Below, one piece after another: positions 579-49,073 of a stretch of 64,000 nucleotides of DNA. The translations under genes were made by a program, and so were the position numbers. Below the pieces are notes generated by a model. It did not search any database, was not told the DNA's origin, and worked only from the letters and a program-made list of their open reading frames with translations. The stretch's first letter is position 1. The number at the start of each line of letters is the position of its first letter. The DNA comes from Amoebophrya sp. A120 (Eukaryota > Protista > Dinoflagellata). The DNA lies in the NCBI GenBank assembly GCA_905178155.1, contig CAJINV010000008.1, forward strand, positions 3,621,420-3,685,419, given 5' to 3'.

Positions 579-1307
579 GCAACACTAGCAAGACGCCGGC
601 GGCCGCAACGGGCGGGGCCGCGGCGCTCTCCGGGTCCGCGGAGAGCAACAAGCTGCAGAACTCCGGCGAGCAGCGAGAACAGCAGGCGAAGGCCGAGAGT
701 GAGCAGAAGCAGCGGGAGCAGCAGGAGGCGTTTGCGAAGGAGATCGACAAGATGCGGGGGGATATGGAGAGAAAAAAGTTTATCACAGTCACTAATTTGC
801 AGGGTTTGCATTAGCATCACAAATTTTCCTTGTATTGCAGAAACACTAGGGAAATCCCTAATAAAGTTTGGCTGTGATGCATTTTTACGCATGACAAACA
901 GTTTTGTATTGCAAAAATGCGCATGAGTGATCGTGACGAACTTTTTTTGTTTGATAGGGGATCTGGCGCAGCTGCGCCAGGAGCTGGGCGCGGAGATCAC
1001 GCGGCGCGAGGAGGCGGAGCTGGAAAGCGAGTACAAGGACCACAAGGTCCAGGTGGCGGAGTCGCGGTGCGCGAAGGCGGAACACGAGAAGAGAACCGAG
1101 GAGCTGAAGGCCAGCGAGATGCAGCGCTGCCTCGAGTTGCTGCAGGAGGACGTGGTGAAGAAGACCCGGGAAGTTGAGCTCAAGTACCTGGAACAGGAGC
1201 GCAGGATCGCCATGCAGCAGGAGATGTACTCGAAGATGCACCGGCTGCAAAACTTCCTGCCCCCGAACATCATCCAAAAAAGTTTCCTCTCGGATATGAA
1301 TATGTGA
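579..1307 (+). CDS. 3' part of a coiled-coil protein gene (exons ~579-762 and 962-1307; 5' end upstream of the window)
   Basis: AG acceptor at 577-578. GC3-rich E/Q/K-rich frame. Removing 199 nt at the element joins ...KMRGD|LAQLRQEL... Stop TGA at 1305-1307. Confidence 0.75.
763..956. mobile_element. Introner, TIR family E; DR GGGGA/GGGGA
   Basis: TATGGAGAGAAAAAAGTTTATCACAGTCACT...AGTGATCGTGACGAACTTTTTTTGTTTGATA is an imperfect TIR. Excision restores frame. Confidence 0.85.
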
Positions 1308-3605
1308 GCCGCCGCTATTATGGCGGTGGAACGACGGAGTCGGAAGGGAATGGTTGACCTGCGAAAGGTAAAAGAATGCCACGGAAGACTGCTAGAATTA
1401 CAACCGGCAGATAAAATAAAAGATGACCACTGGAGGTGGACGCTGCTTGGTTCTAAGCTGTATTTCTTGGTTCAAGTTGAGAAGTCTACTCATCTTCTTG
1501 TTTTCCATTCTTGGGAATAAATCAGGTGAAGTGCAATCCAAAAAAGTCATGGGCCCTCTCTGCTTCCCTTCTTCAACTTATTTTTGCTCGTAGTTCTAGA
1601 TCTAGTTCTTCTTCTTCTGTATTTGTTCACACGTTGTGGATTCCTGGCGAATCCACGGGCACGGATTTATTTATAGTTCGTTGCGTAAAAAACTGTTTCA
1701 TGCTCCTTGTACAAGTGGTCACAAACACAATCTATAAAACTAATCGGCACTAATGTCTAGAACAAAACAGTAAATAGGCACTCAGGTTCTGTGGACCTGC
1801 CCCTTTGATCACACGCAGAGAATAGTAAAACACGGAAACAGTTTAGTTCATCGGATTTCTGTACGATACGTCGCTTGGAGGTCAAAACATTTGTTTCAAC
1901 ATTCATTTTCCCTTATTATAAAAAACCAAAACAAAAAAAAAACCGAAGTACATTCACACAGCAGGACTTTTTCACTCCTAGCTTCGGCAACAAAAATGTG
2001 TACTAAAAAAAGTCGAAGATACACGAGAACTTCATCACTTTTACATTTTTGGGTGTCAGCATGAGCATGAAGGATTTGATTGCGCACATTGGAATCAGTC
2101 GTCTACAGGTTTCTTGTACAATGTGAGAATCAGGATACCGCATCGTGTTCGTGACGCCGTCCTCTCGTCGGATCGTCTAGCTAGAACGCTTCCACCAGGG
2201 GACAATAAAGGGATCCGTACCGAACGTAATCGAACTTGTGATGCTGAGGTTGATGCAACGTCAATGACCGTAGAGGGACTAGAATGCCGCCCTCCGTCGT
2301 GTTAACCCTTGCCACAACAGCGGTGCTCGTGTATAAGTCTCAAACTTTCGCCGGGTGTAGGGTAATGGCGTGTTCTCACGTCGGAGAGGCGACCACACTT
2401 CCCCCTCCTAGTCGTGTGCCAGGCTGCGAACTGATGTAAACCCGCTCCTGTCTATCGAGGAATTGAGTAAGAGGCAACGCCAATCGCCACCTATCTAAAG
2501 ACTAAAAAGCTGACTCTCAAACCCGAACTCAAACTGGCACTCGCATTTTGATCTATGGCACTGGTAGTCAATGTCTATAAGTACTTACAAGAATAAGACT
2601 GTGTGTGGGTGCTGTTGTTTCACTGCAGATTGTTTCACTGCAGAGCGAAAGCGATGTCTGGATGTTGTAAGTAGCCATGATCCACTTCCACCAGCACCAG
2701 GACGATTGGTCATTTATGAAGCTGATAGACACAGATCGACAAGAAAAGATTCAGTTTCAGGTGCAGGAGATGTCAGAGATCTGTCCAGAGCCAATTTTTG
2801 GGGAGTCAGAAGCATTCGATTTTTGAGGACAAATGTTCGGTCAGGTCCATTTTGTGTCAACAGATCCATCATGAAAAAAAAGGAAACAAATAAAAGATCA
2901 ACATCGAGAAATTCATCAGCATCAAATGAGTATTGTCCACGATCGAGGAGTCGATCATACCTGATGAAGATCAGCATAGTCCAAATTCTGGATGGCTATG
3001 AGAGTGGAAACAAGGCGATCTACAGTTTCGAGTTTGTAAGTGCGATTTTTTTGTCAGGCGCAAGTCTGCGAAATTTCATGTCAAATCAAATAACTCGGTG
3101 ACTTTTTTTCTCAGCACGGCCAGAATTGAGGCCGGGTCAGAATTCAGATGAGCGGGGAGCTTTTTTTTCTGAAAGTTTGATGCTGTGCCTTGCATAAGTA
3201 AGTAAGTGATAGCCTGTTAAGATGCACAGACATGTTAGTGCTGTGTAAAATTCAACGTAAATAATCCGCAACAGCGACCGCAGTCCCCTCAAGATTCCCT
3301 TTTAGTCATCCTTGCCCGTATTGGAATTTTCTGTTACGTATTAAATAAGTATTTATACGTAGCAACATTTAATCGGAGGAGCCAGCGTTTTCTTTGTTCT
3401 CTAGACTTCTGCAGAGCCCTTTGTGCTGCACAATAAAGGCAAACAAACTGAGTTCGTAAACATTTTTTCTTCCATTTATCATTTTCTTCTCTGAGCTATT
3501 CAAGTTTTTCTGGTGTAATTTTCAGTTGGTTGCACAACTAGAAAAAACAAAAAGCCACAGCTCCAATAAATAAGTACTCATTTCTCTTTTAAATCTACTT
3601 CTATA

Positions 3606-46405: not shown

Positions 46406-49073
46406 ATGGCGAGTCCTTCGGGTACCGGTGGTGGCACTGGTACCCCCAGTAGCACTTCCTCTTCCGCCAACGGCGCGAAATCCAAGATGGCGTTAAAACA
46501 GGGGCGGGAGCAGGAGCAGAACCAGAGCGACCGTCCAGAACCCCCGCCGTCCTCGGCATCCTCCTCCACAGCCTCCACGCCGAGCAGGAGCAAAGAGACC
46601 TCGGGCGTCAAATCTTCGTGGTGCCCCCCGCGGTTCAGCTCGGTGTCCGACAATGAGGTGGAGGGCAACATCTACATGCACAACCCAAAGGCCCTGCCAA
46701 TACGGATGATCAACTGGTACCAGGTGTTTCAGACGCACTATTTGTCCCACATCTACATCGCGGTCATCGCGTTTCTCATCTACTTCGCGCCCAATGAGCT
46801 CTTCTTCGTCAGCGAGCTGGGGTACAAAGCCGTGGAAACCTTTGGATGGGTATAAAATAAATAGAAATCTTCAAAATTTGGTTTCAGATAGTCAACATCT
46901 GGATTTTTTTTCCCACTCGGATTCTCAATGTAGTTCGTTGTGATTTAGAATTTTCCATGAATGTAGTAATGATGCGCAACAGAAGATCATGCAGATGCAC
47001 CAAAGAAGTATGTTGGTGCTCTCGCGAACCAACGATTGTGCACTCTCGTGGGTTGTCAAACGGCCACTTTTTCTGTACTCAATTGATCTTTAGTACATTC
47101 ATGAATGTAAATGTTGCTGTCAAAATAAAAATCCACAGTCCCGCGTCGTTTTGGTCGTCCTGCTGCCCTTGATCCTCTACCGTTCTTCTTCGTGGGGCCC
47201 ACATTGGCGCAGCAGTGTCTATTTGATCGACTTCGAGTGTGCGGCACCCCCCGAGGATTGGCGCATGACGGTGGAGCAGACGAAGAAGATGCTGGAGAAC
47301 CAGAGAAGTTTTACAGACGAGTCAAAAGAGTTCCAGCACCGGATTCTGAATACCTCCGGTATCGGCGACGGTACCGCCTGGCCGCCCTGCATCTTGAATT
47401 CCCTCGGCGGGAAATCTGTCGCGACGAGCCGCAGCGACAGTAAAACTTCCGCCTCCTCCGGTGGGTCACTGTACGAGTACGCGAGTACGATGCAAGACGC
47501 GAGGGATGAAACCGAGACCATCGTGTTCGACATGGTGGAACGACTCCTCGCGAGGACAAAAACAAAAGCGAAAAACATCGACTTTCTCGTCGTCAATTGC
47601 TCGCTCTTCTGCCCGACACCGTCGATCTGCGCCATGATTGCGAACAAGTTCAAAATGAAGGAGGACATCAACAGCTTCAATCTGGGCGGCATGGGCTGCT
47701 CCGCCGGGGTCATCAGCATCGACTTGGCGAAGCAGCTGATACAAAACAAACCTGGGGCAACGGCGCTGGTGGTCAGCACCGAAAACCTGTCACAGAATCT
47801 GTACGTTGATATAGATCTACACGTCTTGTTTGACTACTAGTATACTTATGTTCTTGTTCAACAACACAGAGGGTCAAGTTCAAGATCCAGCTCCATGATG
47901 ACTGTTCTTTTTCAGTTGTCACTCTCACTTTCACCAGGACATTGCCGCAAACCTAATATCATGATACAACTCATCAAAGGCAAAACAATAAAAAAAAACA
48001 GTTACACGGGTAACGATCGTTCGATGATGATGCAGAACACGCTTTTCCGTTGCGGTGGCGCCGCGGTTCTGCTTTCGAGCAACAGCTACAACTACAACAC
48101 GAAGCGATTTGCAAAGTACAAACTCCTTCACAGCGGCCGCACCTTCATGACGGACGACGAAAGTTTCAAATGTGTCTACCAGGAGGAAGACAATCTGCCG
48201 AGTAAAGTTGCAAGCTGTATTGCTAGTACAACAAGAACAGAAGGTGAAGGAACAAAAGCAGAAATATCCAAAGCACAGTCAGCGACAAATAACAATATAA
48301 AACCCGCAGCCGCGGCGCCGTCAGGGGATCTGAAGGGCGTCCGTCTGCAGCGAAACATCGTGACCGTCGCTGGGCGCGCACTGACGAAGCAATTCACGCA
48401 GCTCGGCCCGAACATCTTGCCGGTCAGCGAGCAGGCGAAGACGATCGGCACCATGGTCGCGGACTACCTGTGCAAGAATTTTTTGCACATTTTGTCCCCC
48501 AAACACTTCCCGCCGCGGGTAAAGATCTACACGCCGAACTTCAAGAAGTGCATCGACCACTTTTGCATCCACGCGGGCGGCCGGGCGGTCATCGAGGGCG
48601 TGCAGAAGAACCTGAAGCTAACGGATCGGGACGTCGAGCCGTCCTTCATGACGCTGAAGAAGTGGGGCAACACGAGCAGCTATCAAATGTAAAAATGTCT
48701 GGGTCTGGAAGAATGCGCGATTTGTCATGCAGCTTTTCCATGACCCATGAAGCCTGGAATGCAGGATCTAGCATGACAGATTCTGCGCGATCTCTCTCAT
48801 GCCTATCCTGCATGACAAACTCCCTCCCGACTTGGCCAAAACTGGACCACATTTGGTAATCATGCAGCACAGATTTTTGCATGCTTCAGATTTAGCATGA
48901 CAAGTTGCATTCTTCCAGACCCAGACATTTTTACATTTGATAGCAGCTCCTCCATCTGGTACGAGCTGCAGTTCATCGAGGACTCGAAGCGCATAAAACA
49001 CGGCCACCAGGTTCTGCAGATCGCCTTCGGCTCCGGGTTCAAGTGCAACTCCGCGGTCTGGCTCAGACTGTAG
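46406..49073 (+). CDS. KCS: 3-ketoacyl-CoA synthase (FAE1/KCS-type fatty acid elongase condensing enzyme); exons 46406-46849, 47139-47800, 48002-48680, 48948-49073
   Basis: [22 protein letters not shown] (catalytic Cys), [53 protein letters not shown]. Confidence 0.95.
48681..48942. mobile_element. Introner, family A, youngest-looking copy; DR GCAGC/GCAGC
   Basis: Perfect 36-bp TIR TATCAAATGTAAAAATGTCTGGGTCTGGAAGAATGC. Interrupts the conserved [12 protein letters not shown] motif. Confidence 0.97.

What the first reader, a model, noticed from the sequence alone, without database searches (positions are those of the whole stretch)
889..48905. Internal GCATGACAAAT-like motif shared by unrelated TIR families
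Seen: GCATGACA(AAT), its reverse complement TGTCATGC and the variants GCATCACA/TGTGATGC recur inside most elements whatever the TIR sequence. Examples are at 889, 14534, 14565, 18542, 20160, 20248, 26848, 27470, 37745, 38743 and 39276, with reverse copies near 12843, 14156-14287 (four), 18704, 38698 and 48723. I noticed almost none in exons or GT-AG introns (one near-match at ~28380). Inference: this may be a common binding site for one transposase or splicing factor serving all families, or internal stems that fold the intron. It persists in copies whose TIRs have decayed, which hints at selection.
Basis: partly seen in the sequence, partly recalled or inferred. Interest (0 to 1): 0.8.

Follow-up and report, generated by a model that had tools for sequence, protein, structure and literature searches.

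The report
Shared paired site in parasite introners
The mobile introns of the marine parasite Amoebophrya share one short internal DNA word, mostly in pairs about three helix turns apart, which likely serves as the docking site for a common protein that copies them rather than as a splicing signal.

Summary
The motif is real: 48 exact hits against 5 expected, 44 of them in 31 elements that cover 8 of 64 kb. The window is Amoebophrya sp. A120 DNA, and the elements are its published non-canonical introners. In 408 elements from the window and 155 related loci, the site is GCAW[GCT]ACARR. It occurs in all 18 TIR types with two or more copies. New here: it sits mostly as a same-strand pair 31-33 bp apart with unrelated spacers (313 of 408 elements), often anchored about 40 or 50 bp from an end. 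The types also share TA(T) ends and a 5-bp target duplication, so they are one system. The core diverges four times more slowly than the rest, but mainly on branches leading to active copies; private changes arise at about the neutral rate. There is no strand bias to transcription and no base-pair covariation, and a copy with one weak site is still spliced. Best reading (0.62): a DNA site for a shared mobilising protein. No such protein was found. Internal transposase sites are a known principle; this layout across unrelated families was not in the papers searched.

The parts
763..956 (.). Introner (type T13), 5-bp duplication; 5 matrix sites, pair 880/912 (-)
8745..9115 (.). Introner, decayed; 3 sites, no pair
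12008..12208 (.). Introner (T1), left end mutated; 2 sites; removed in RNA contigs
12300..12553 (.). Introner (T3); 1 matrix site, no exact motif, no pair; removed in RNA contigs
12650..12928 (.). Introner (T2); 5 sites all on - strand, pairs 12768/12801 and 12850/12881; removed in RNA contigs
14115..14366 (.). Introner (T0); 6 sites, chain 14163/14194/14227 (-)
14492..14641 (.). Introner (T1); pair 14534/14565 (+)
17875..18185 (.). Introner, decayed TIR, exact duplication; 3 sites
18326..18591 (.). Introner (T0); 5 sites, pair 18374/18405 (-)
18665..18948 (.). Decayed introner, left end uncertain; 1 site (18711 -)
19154..19303 (.). Introner (T1), right end mutated; 1 site
19472..19771 (.). 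Introner (T0-like), decayed; 3 sites
19791..19997 (.). Introner (T7); 4 sites
20070..20288 (.). Introner (T3); 3 sites
20405..20622 (.). Introner (T0); 1 site
20822..21225 (.). Long T2 element, duplication 3 of 5; 9 sites, pairs 20869/20900 and 20949/20982 (+)
22405..22627 (.). Decayed introner (T5-like); 1 site
23245..23500 (.). Decayed introner; 1 weak site; RNA contig pieces stop at 23240 and start at 23507
24876..25154 (.). Introner (T0); 6 sites, pair 24925/24957 (-); RNA contig lacks 24870-25153 = element + 5 nt
26217..26543 (.). Introner, decayed TIR; pair 26479/26512 (+)
26673..26994 (.). Introner (T9); three pairs 26723/26756 (-), 26816/26848 (+), 26900/26932 (+)
27063..27343 (.). Introner (T0-like), decayed; 3 sites
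27372..27548 (.). Introner (T1); 1 site (27470 +)
30488..30785 (.). Decayed introner (T3-like); 1 site
30886..31239 (.). Introner (T12); pair 30926/30957 (-)
37409..37590 (.). Introner (T15-like), decayed; 1 site
37634..37906 (.). Introner (T3), decayed; 1 site (37745 +)
38558..38796 (.). Introner (T4); 4 sites, no 31-33 pair (typical of T4)
38857..39005 (.). Introner (T1); pair 38932/38963 (-)
39010..39326 (.). Introner (T0-like) abutting the previous one; 2 sites
48681..48942 (.). Intact introner (T0) in a 3-ketoacyl-CoA synthase gene; pairs 48730/48762 (-) and 48864/48895 (+); removal with 5 nt restores KWGNTSSSSIWY

Best explanation
The motif GCAW[GCT]ACARR recurs inside nearly all TA-ended, 5-bp-duplication introners of Amoebophrya A120, mostly as same-strand pairs 31-33 bp apart, and likely acts as the DNA binding site of one shared protein that these elements need in order to be copied. 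Shown: the site, its spacing, its anchoring near ends, its slow change in lineages of active copies, and its indifference to the direction of transcription. Inferred: the protein (an integrase-like transposase itself, or a host cofactor it recruits) would bind two sites on the same face of the helix, three turns apart, and help bring the ends together. The transposase would cut at the TA ends and insert with a 5-bp stagger. After insertion the site would drift. Splicing removes the element plus one duplicate copy (shown for 4 elements) and would rely on the terminal hairpin rather than on this site.
For: Site in 18 of 18 TIR types with 2 or more copies; 9.9/kb inside against 0.79/kb outside; 27-42 times a first- or second-order Markov expectation from the interiors, 9.9 times at third order. 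31-33 bp pair in 313 of 408 elements and 24 of 37 types; 20.1 against 3.1 types (null maximum 10) with one member per type; spacer identity between types 0.32. All 18 pairs in the window lie in elements. Divergent pairs are phased at 10.4 bp (R 0.42; null mean 0.14, maximum 0.39). Outward site 39-42 or 48-52 bp from an end: 15.1 of 37 types against null 6.3, maximum 11.6. Spacer length changes are rarer in 13 of 15 subfamilies. Masked interiors link only 5 of 153 type pairs. Exact 5-bp duplication in 187 of 279 TIR pairs chosen without that criterion, and in 15 of 19 types. Core/other change ratio is 0.15 on internal branches and 0.42 on tips, the same pattern as the TIR (0.30, 0.67). Private core changes 0.032 per site against 0.019-0.038 expected from duplication mismatches. 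Sites on sense 505, antisense 513.
Against: No binding protein or autonomous element was found (120 of 280 long frames scanned, no whole genome). Farhat et al. report no transposase in A120. The tip ratio of 0.42 is lower than the TIR's 0.67, so some constraint after insertion is not excluded. All 31 window elements keep at least one site, and in the larger set sites fall more slowly with TIR asymmetry than uniform decay predicts (1.76 against about 0.82 per 100 nt). Type T4 (0 of 13) and most of T7 lack the pair; six multi-copy types lack the end anchor. The 10.4 period and the anchor windows were chosen after seeing the data, and the spacings are not independent. Family-specific TIR positions 15-30 are also conserved, which could mean several transposases.
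Confidence: 0.62

Rival explanations
1. The motif is a splicing signal, read on the pre-mRNA (or co-transcriptionally on DNA) by a factor that replaces the missing U1 snRNP.
For: U1 is undetected and the splicing mechanism is open. GT-AG is possible in only 10 of 162 coding insertions. 31 of 31 window elements keep one or more sites, and only 1 of 393 classified elements has none. Tip ratio 0.42. Slower decline than simulated decay.
Against: No strand bias: pair on antisense only in 62, sense only in 60 of 206; 15 elements have sites on antisense only. Core differences 12/499 in non-coding against 188/4761 in coding context. Private changes at about the neutral rate. Element 12300-12553, with one weak site and no pair, is removed in RNA contigs. 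A strict 31-33 nt spacing with helical phase suits DNA better than RNA (inference).
Confidence: 0.13
2. A host DNA-binding protein (chromatin or transcription factor) binds the site, and the benefit is to the host gene or to tolerance of the insertion, not to copying.
For: Same DNA-level signatures as the best explanation. Elements are strongly enriched in coding sequence (227 coding, 22 non-coding of 393; random positions 449 and 453 of 1,500).
Against: Predicts purifying selection after insertion, which the duplication clock does not show. The site is rare outside elements (4 exact hits in 56 kb), unlike an ordinary host regulatory motif.
Confidence: 0.1
3. The motif is a functionless relic: all families descend from one ancestor that carried a 31-32 bp tandem repeat.
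For: Shared ends and duplication length imply common ancestry. Some types remain alignable inside (T0, T16, T17). The ends of T0/T1/T12 resemble the motif.
Against: Spacers are unrelated while sites and spacing persist. The core changes four times more slowly than the rest (0.041-0.044 against 0.172) and 0.15 times as often on internal branches. CpG decay does not explain it.
Confidence: 0.07
4. Opposite-strand copies pair to form internal RNA stems that fold the intron.
For: 143 of 330 sites pair mostly with another site in minimum-energy folds; interior z averages -2.3 and -1.6 with sites held fixed.
Against: No covariation: paired cells 3,599 against 3,599.8 expected; compensatory 14 against 14.7. 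Sites with and without a predicted partner diverge equally (0.041, 0.042). 50 of 402 multi-site elements, including 16 of type T2 (21 copies) and 7 of T10 (7 copies), have all sites on one strand. The main arrangement is a direct repeat, which cannot pair.
Confidence: 0.05

Closest known systems
Amoebophrya A120 introner elements (Farhat et al. 2021, PMC7789003)
   Same: Same organism and the same elements: TAT + 7 nt + AAA inverted repeats, direct repeats, non-canonical splice sites, many families.
   Different: The passages, section 16 and supplement text that I saw give no shared internal motif, list direct repeats of 3-5 nt, and argue against general transposase-mediated mobility. Here: one 5-bp duplication and one internal site for all types.
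A120 family 38, 'Ginger'-like (Gozashti et al. 2025, PMC12130899)
   Same: Annotated '5-bp TSD, TA/TA termini' with homology to LTR-element integrase-like sequence; the same end and duplication signature as all types here.
   Different: About 810 bp with ORFs. Most other A120 families are filed as 'TIR DNA, unknown' with automated duplication lengths of 2-6. I could not compare sequences with family 38.
GingerRoot transposons (PMC6839031)
   Same: TA...TA termini and integrase-related transposase.
   Different: 6-bp duplication, 100-150 bp TIRs, 4-13 kb elements; not described as introns in the passages seen.
Internal transposase sites of P elements (PMC7776569); subterminal repeats of hAT and CACTA elements and the Hin/Gin enhancer (recalled, no call)
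   Same: Protein binds short sites set in from the ends at defined spacing; P has 10-bp internal sites 9 and 21 bp from the TIR.
   Different: Those sites belong to one element family with one TIR. Here one site with a 31-33 bp pair rule is shared by types whose TIRs and interiors differ.

Membership tests
Amoebophrya A120 introner elements | Terminal inverted repeat starting TAT, 7 variable nt, then AAA | tested here: met
   T3, T4, T6, T14 and T17 keep TAT[CG] but not the full AAA
Amoebophrya A120 introner elements | Direct repeat at the exon boundary | tested here: met
   exact 5 bp in 187 of 279 TIR pairs; any other length at most 24
Amoebophrya A120 introner elements | Removed from mRNA without GT-AG | tested here: met
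   4 elements removed with exactly 5 nt in RNA contigs; frame restored in 175 of 317; GT-AG possible in 10 of 162
Amoebophrya A120 introner elements | Host is A120 | tested here: met
   window exon 100% identical to an A120 protein. The metagenome loci share subfamilies with window copies, but their strain was not verified
MITE (non-autonomous TIR transposon) | Short, TIR, target duplication, non-coding, many copies | tested here: met
   110-330 bp medians; summed DNA contig depth up to 2x10^5 over elements against about 45 (not a copy number)
MITE (non-autonomous TIR transposon) | Autonomous partner with matching ends | tested here: inconclusive
   none in 614 kb; no transposase domain in 120 of 280 long frames; no whole genome available
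GingerRoot / Ginger | TA...TA termini | tested here: met
GingerRoot / Ginger | 6-bp target duplication and 100-150 bp TIR (GingerRoot) | tested here: not met
   5 bp and about 30 bp here
GingerRoot / Ginger | Integrase-like DDE transposase | not testable with these tools
   elements are non-coding; partner not found
Internal transposase-binding site (P/hAT/CACTA type) | Repeated short site at defined spacing from ends | tested here: met
Internal transposase-binding site (P/hAT/CACTA type) | Direct protein binding, required for transposition | not testable with these tools
   needs binding and mobility assays; only the evolutionary signature was tested
RNA splicing-regulator site (for example RBFOX GCAUG; motif recalled) | Present on the transcribed sense strand | tested here: not met
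   505 sense, 513 antisense; position 5 tolerates G, C and T
Conserved RNA stem | Covariation between paired positions | tested here: not met

The most novel reading that the evidence does not exclude
One protein, possibly a host factor, reads a universal internal tag (two sites three helix turns apart) that licenses dozens of introner families with different TIRs to be copied, and the same DNA-bound mark also hands the nascent RNA to the unknown non-canonical splicing machinery, tying transposition to intron removal.
Probability: 0.12. Interest if true: 0.88.

Novelty: new variant of a known kind. Interest (0 to 1): 0.58.

Why it matters
A120 introners make up about 17% of the assembly, were split into about 1,950 families, and have no known mobiliser or splicing mechanism. 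A shared internal site with fixed spacing, plus one end and duplication signature, turns them into a single system. It gives a defined double-stranded bait to pull down the protein and a search profile for the autonomous element. It also narrows the splicing question: the signal is more likely the terminal hairpin than this motif.

Tried and rejected
CpG-decay or composition artefact: rejected (Markov controls; CpG columns are not faster on tips). RNA stems as the cause: rejected. Free EM motif search converged on a mix of both orientations, because the 9-mer is a TG-N5-CA pseudo-palindrome; I used an oriented matrix instead. Autonomous element: none; the longest candidate, L021:505-1608, holds GC-rich repeats and has no Pfam hit. 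Viral contigs: 0 hits for the TIR pattern; 40 single hits for the pair pattern, 39 with no TIR element and one weak candidate not followed. Prokaryote genomes: 21 scattered hits, not examined further, read as chance. Rfam: nothing in the window at gathering thresholds or at 14400-15200, so no complementary small RNA was identified. No run is on record as RNA holding the stretch; X1 and X2 are taken as RNA because they also lack GT-AG introns. Region 29800-49600 has no read evidence. Using TIR asymmetry as an age clock in the loci is unreliable because young families have unequal ends. Three look-ups of earlier findings returned nothing. Rows dropped: 9 redundant loci and 3 overlaps trimmed; 5 doubtful element calls of 413; subfamilies under 6 members and rows under 60% identity to consensus (311 of 408 copies used); 5 copies with 0-1 duplication matches.
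Full report
Observation. GCAT[CG]ACA occurs 48 times against 5.0 expected, and every listed coordinate is exact. I curated 31 elements in the window from a library of end sequences. They cover 7,999 bp and hold 44 of the 48 hits (5.5/kb against 0.07/kb outside). One element (18665-18948) has an uncertain left end.

What the elements are. An exon of the ketoacyl-CoA synthase gene is 100% identical to an Amoebophrya sp. 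A120 protein. Farhat et al. describe A120 introners with TAT-N7-AAA inverted repeats, which is the end pattern seen here. RNA-like contigs X1 and X2 lack the elements: 24870-25153 is removed in X1 (279 + 5 nt), and both runs leave 179 nt between 12000 and 12929, exactly what removing three elements plus 5 nt each leaves. The annotated synthase reads through the 48681-48942 element the same way. The introners themselves are therefore known.

Larger sample. One metagenome scan with a T0 terminal pattern gave 164 loci from a single assembly. After removing overlaps, 614 kb with the window gave 408 elements in 37 TIR types; 266 strict seeds were found against 1 in a resampled control. T0 is over-represented (193 copies) and its TIR is ascertained, so cross-type numbers are weighted or resampled per type. 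Window copies fall in the same subfamilies, but the strain of the loci is unverified. The types are not independent systems: all end in TAT[CG]-like sequence, and TIR pairs chosen without a duplication criterion show an exact 5-bp direct repeat in 187 of 279 cases, in 15 of 19 types. Removing element + 5 nt gives an open coding frame in 175 of 317 cases, against 37-46 for out-of-frame lengths. Their interiors are unrelated once sites are masked: 5 of 153 type pairs link (masking lowers sensitivity).

The site and its layout. The oriented matrix is GCAW[GCT]ACARR, about four sites per element; 148 sites in one member per type against 8.7 in shuffles. The exact motif occurs in all 18 multi-copy types, at 9.9/kb against 0.79/kb outside, and 326 of 408 outside hits lie near an unpaired end (28% for random positions). 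Same-strand pairs 31-33 bp apart occur in 313 of 408 elements and 24 of 37 types (20.1 against 3.1 under permutation), with spacer identity of only 0.32 between types. All 18 such pairs in the window lie in elements. Divergent pairs cluster at 9, 30, 40-41, 51, 82 and 92 bp, in phase at 10.4 bp. An outward-pointing site lies about 40 or 50 bp from an end in 281 of 408 elements. Spacer length changes of 2 or more are modestly rarer than in other intervals (0.32 against 0.47 per 100 bp). T4 lacks the pair, six multi-copy types lack the anchor, and the period and windows were picked after viewing the data.

When selection acts. In 18 subfamily alignments (311 copies) the five core positions differ from consensus at 0.041-0.044, against 0.172 for other interior positions. 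On trees the core/other ratio is 0.15 on internal branches and 0.42 on tips; the family-specific TIR shows 0.30 and 0.67. Tips include unsampled active lineages, so I used the duplication as a clock: the two copies differ at 0.038 per site (173 copies), which means 0.019-0.038 per copy since insertion, and private core changes are 0.032. In the window, site density falls with TIR decay (rho 0.64). This fits a site needed to be copied and free afterwards. Against it: no window element has lost all sites (simulated decay gives 8-21% with none at comparable TIR match), and in the loci the decline is slower than uniform decay, though TIR asymmetry is a poor clock there.

RNA-level rivals. In 206 coding insertions with known direction, sites are 505 sense and 513 antisense; the pair is antisense-only in 62 and sense-only in 60. 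Conservation is no weaker in non-coding context (19 copies), and 1 of 18 subfamilies shows a nominal orientation bias (p 0.035). Element 12300-12553 has one weak site and is spliced. Opposite sites often pair in predicted folds and interiors fold better than shuffles, but there is no covariation and unpartnered sites are as conserved. The terminal stem forms in 81 of 82 folds, and GT-AG is available in 10 of 162 insertions, so the hairpin plus duplication is the likelier splicing cue (inference).

Mechanism. Most likely (0.62) the site binds one protein used by all types for mobility, two sites on one helix face. Whether it is the transposase or a cofactor is open; the conserved family-specific TIR segment leaves room for several transposases with one cofactor. 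No such protein was found.

Comparison with print. Farhat 2021 (abstract, passages, section 16, supplement text; figures not seen) reports no shared internal motif in what I saw. Gozashti 2025 (passages; all 58 A120 rows of supplementary file 8; files 13-14 and figures not seen) notes a 5-bp duplication and TA/TA ends for family 38 only and links it to integrase-like sequence. Gozashti 2022, the GingerRoot paper, the P-element review and the 2024 Mobile DNA review were seen as passages. Roy 2023 was not read. Eight searches listed no paper describing this motif; one search showed 20 of 75 string matches, none on this organism. hAT, CACTA, Hin-enhancer and RBFOX parallels are recalled.

Verdict. 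A real feature in a known class of element, with a layout not found in the papers searched. Internal binding sites are a known principle, so this is a new variant. Interest 0.58, because it makes the open question of what mobilises A120 introners directly testable.

Noticed in passing
window 14719-14969: Raw-read run X9 puts nearly all of its 1,613 laid reads here, with a template-switch adapter at 14719 and poly(A) after 14969. No Rfam match. Probably an amplified 3' UTR fragment of the upstream gene; a small abundant RNA is not excluded.
   Followed up: partly
all elements: Strong preference for coding sequence: 227 coding and 22 non-coding of 393 classified, against 449 and 453 of 1,500 random positions.
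   Followed up: partly
ends of types T0, T1, T12 (for example window 18326, 26217): The terminal sequence after TAT often scores as a degenerate inward-pointing copy of the internal site.
   Followed up: no
TIR positions 5-14 against 15-30: Positions 15-30 are family-specific yet better conserved within families than the shared positions 5-14 (internal ratios 0.30 and 0.89; T0 is ascertained). Left and right ends match slightly better within a copy than between copies in 12 of 18 subfamilies.
   Followed up: partly
L021:505-1608: 1.1-kb element with exact 5-bp duplication, motif sites near the left end and a GC-rich repeat core; no Pfam hit.
   Followed up: partly
window 38857-39326: Two elements abut, 4 nt apart, with overlapping duplications; four more lie within 37409-38796 or close by.
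   Followed up: no
window 20822-21225: 404-bp T2 element with perfect TIRs, 9 sites and a poor duplication; possibly a composite.
   Followed up: no
type T17 (for example L035:17207-17450): T0-like copies that start at an inner TAT, with no exact duplication in 2 of 2.
   Followed up: no
window 9576, 10398, 46976, 59927: Single matrix sites inside apparent GT-AG introns; could be remnants of old introners or chance.
   Followed up: no
window 50525-58177: Uninterrupted 2,550-codon frame with a separase (Peptidase_C50) domain and no introner.
   Followed up: no
window 31461-31740: Five in-frame coding repeats spaced 54-63 nt apart.
   Followed up: no
L018:2635-6090; L012:2-4790: A C-5 cytosine methylase gene; a DNA ligase carrying a DRMBL nuclease domain.
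   Followed up: no
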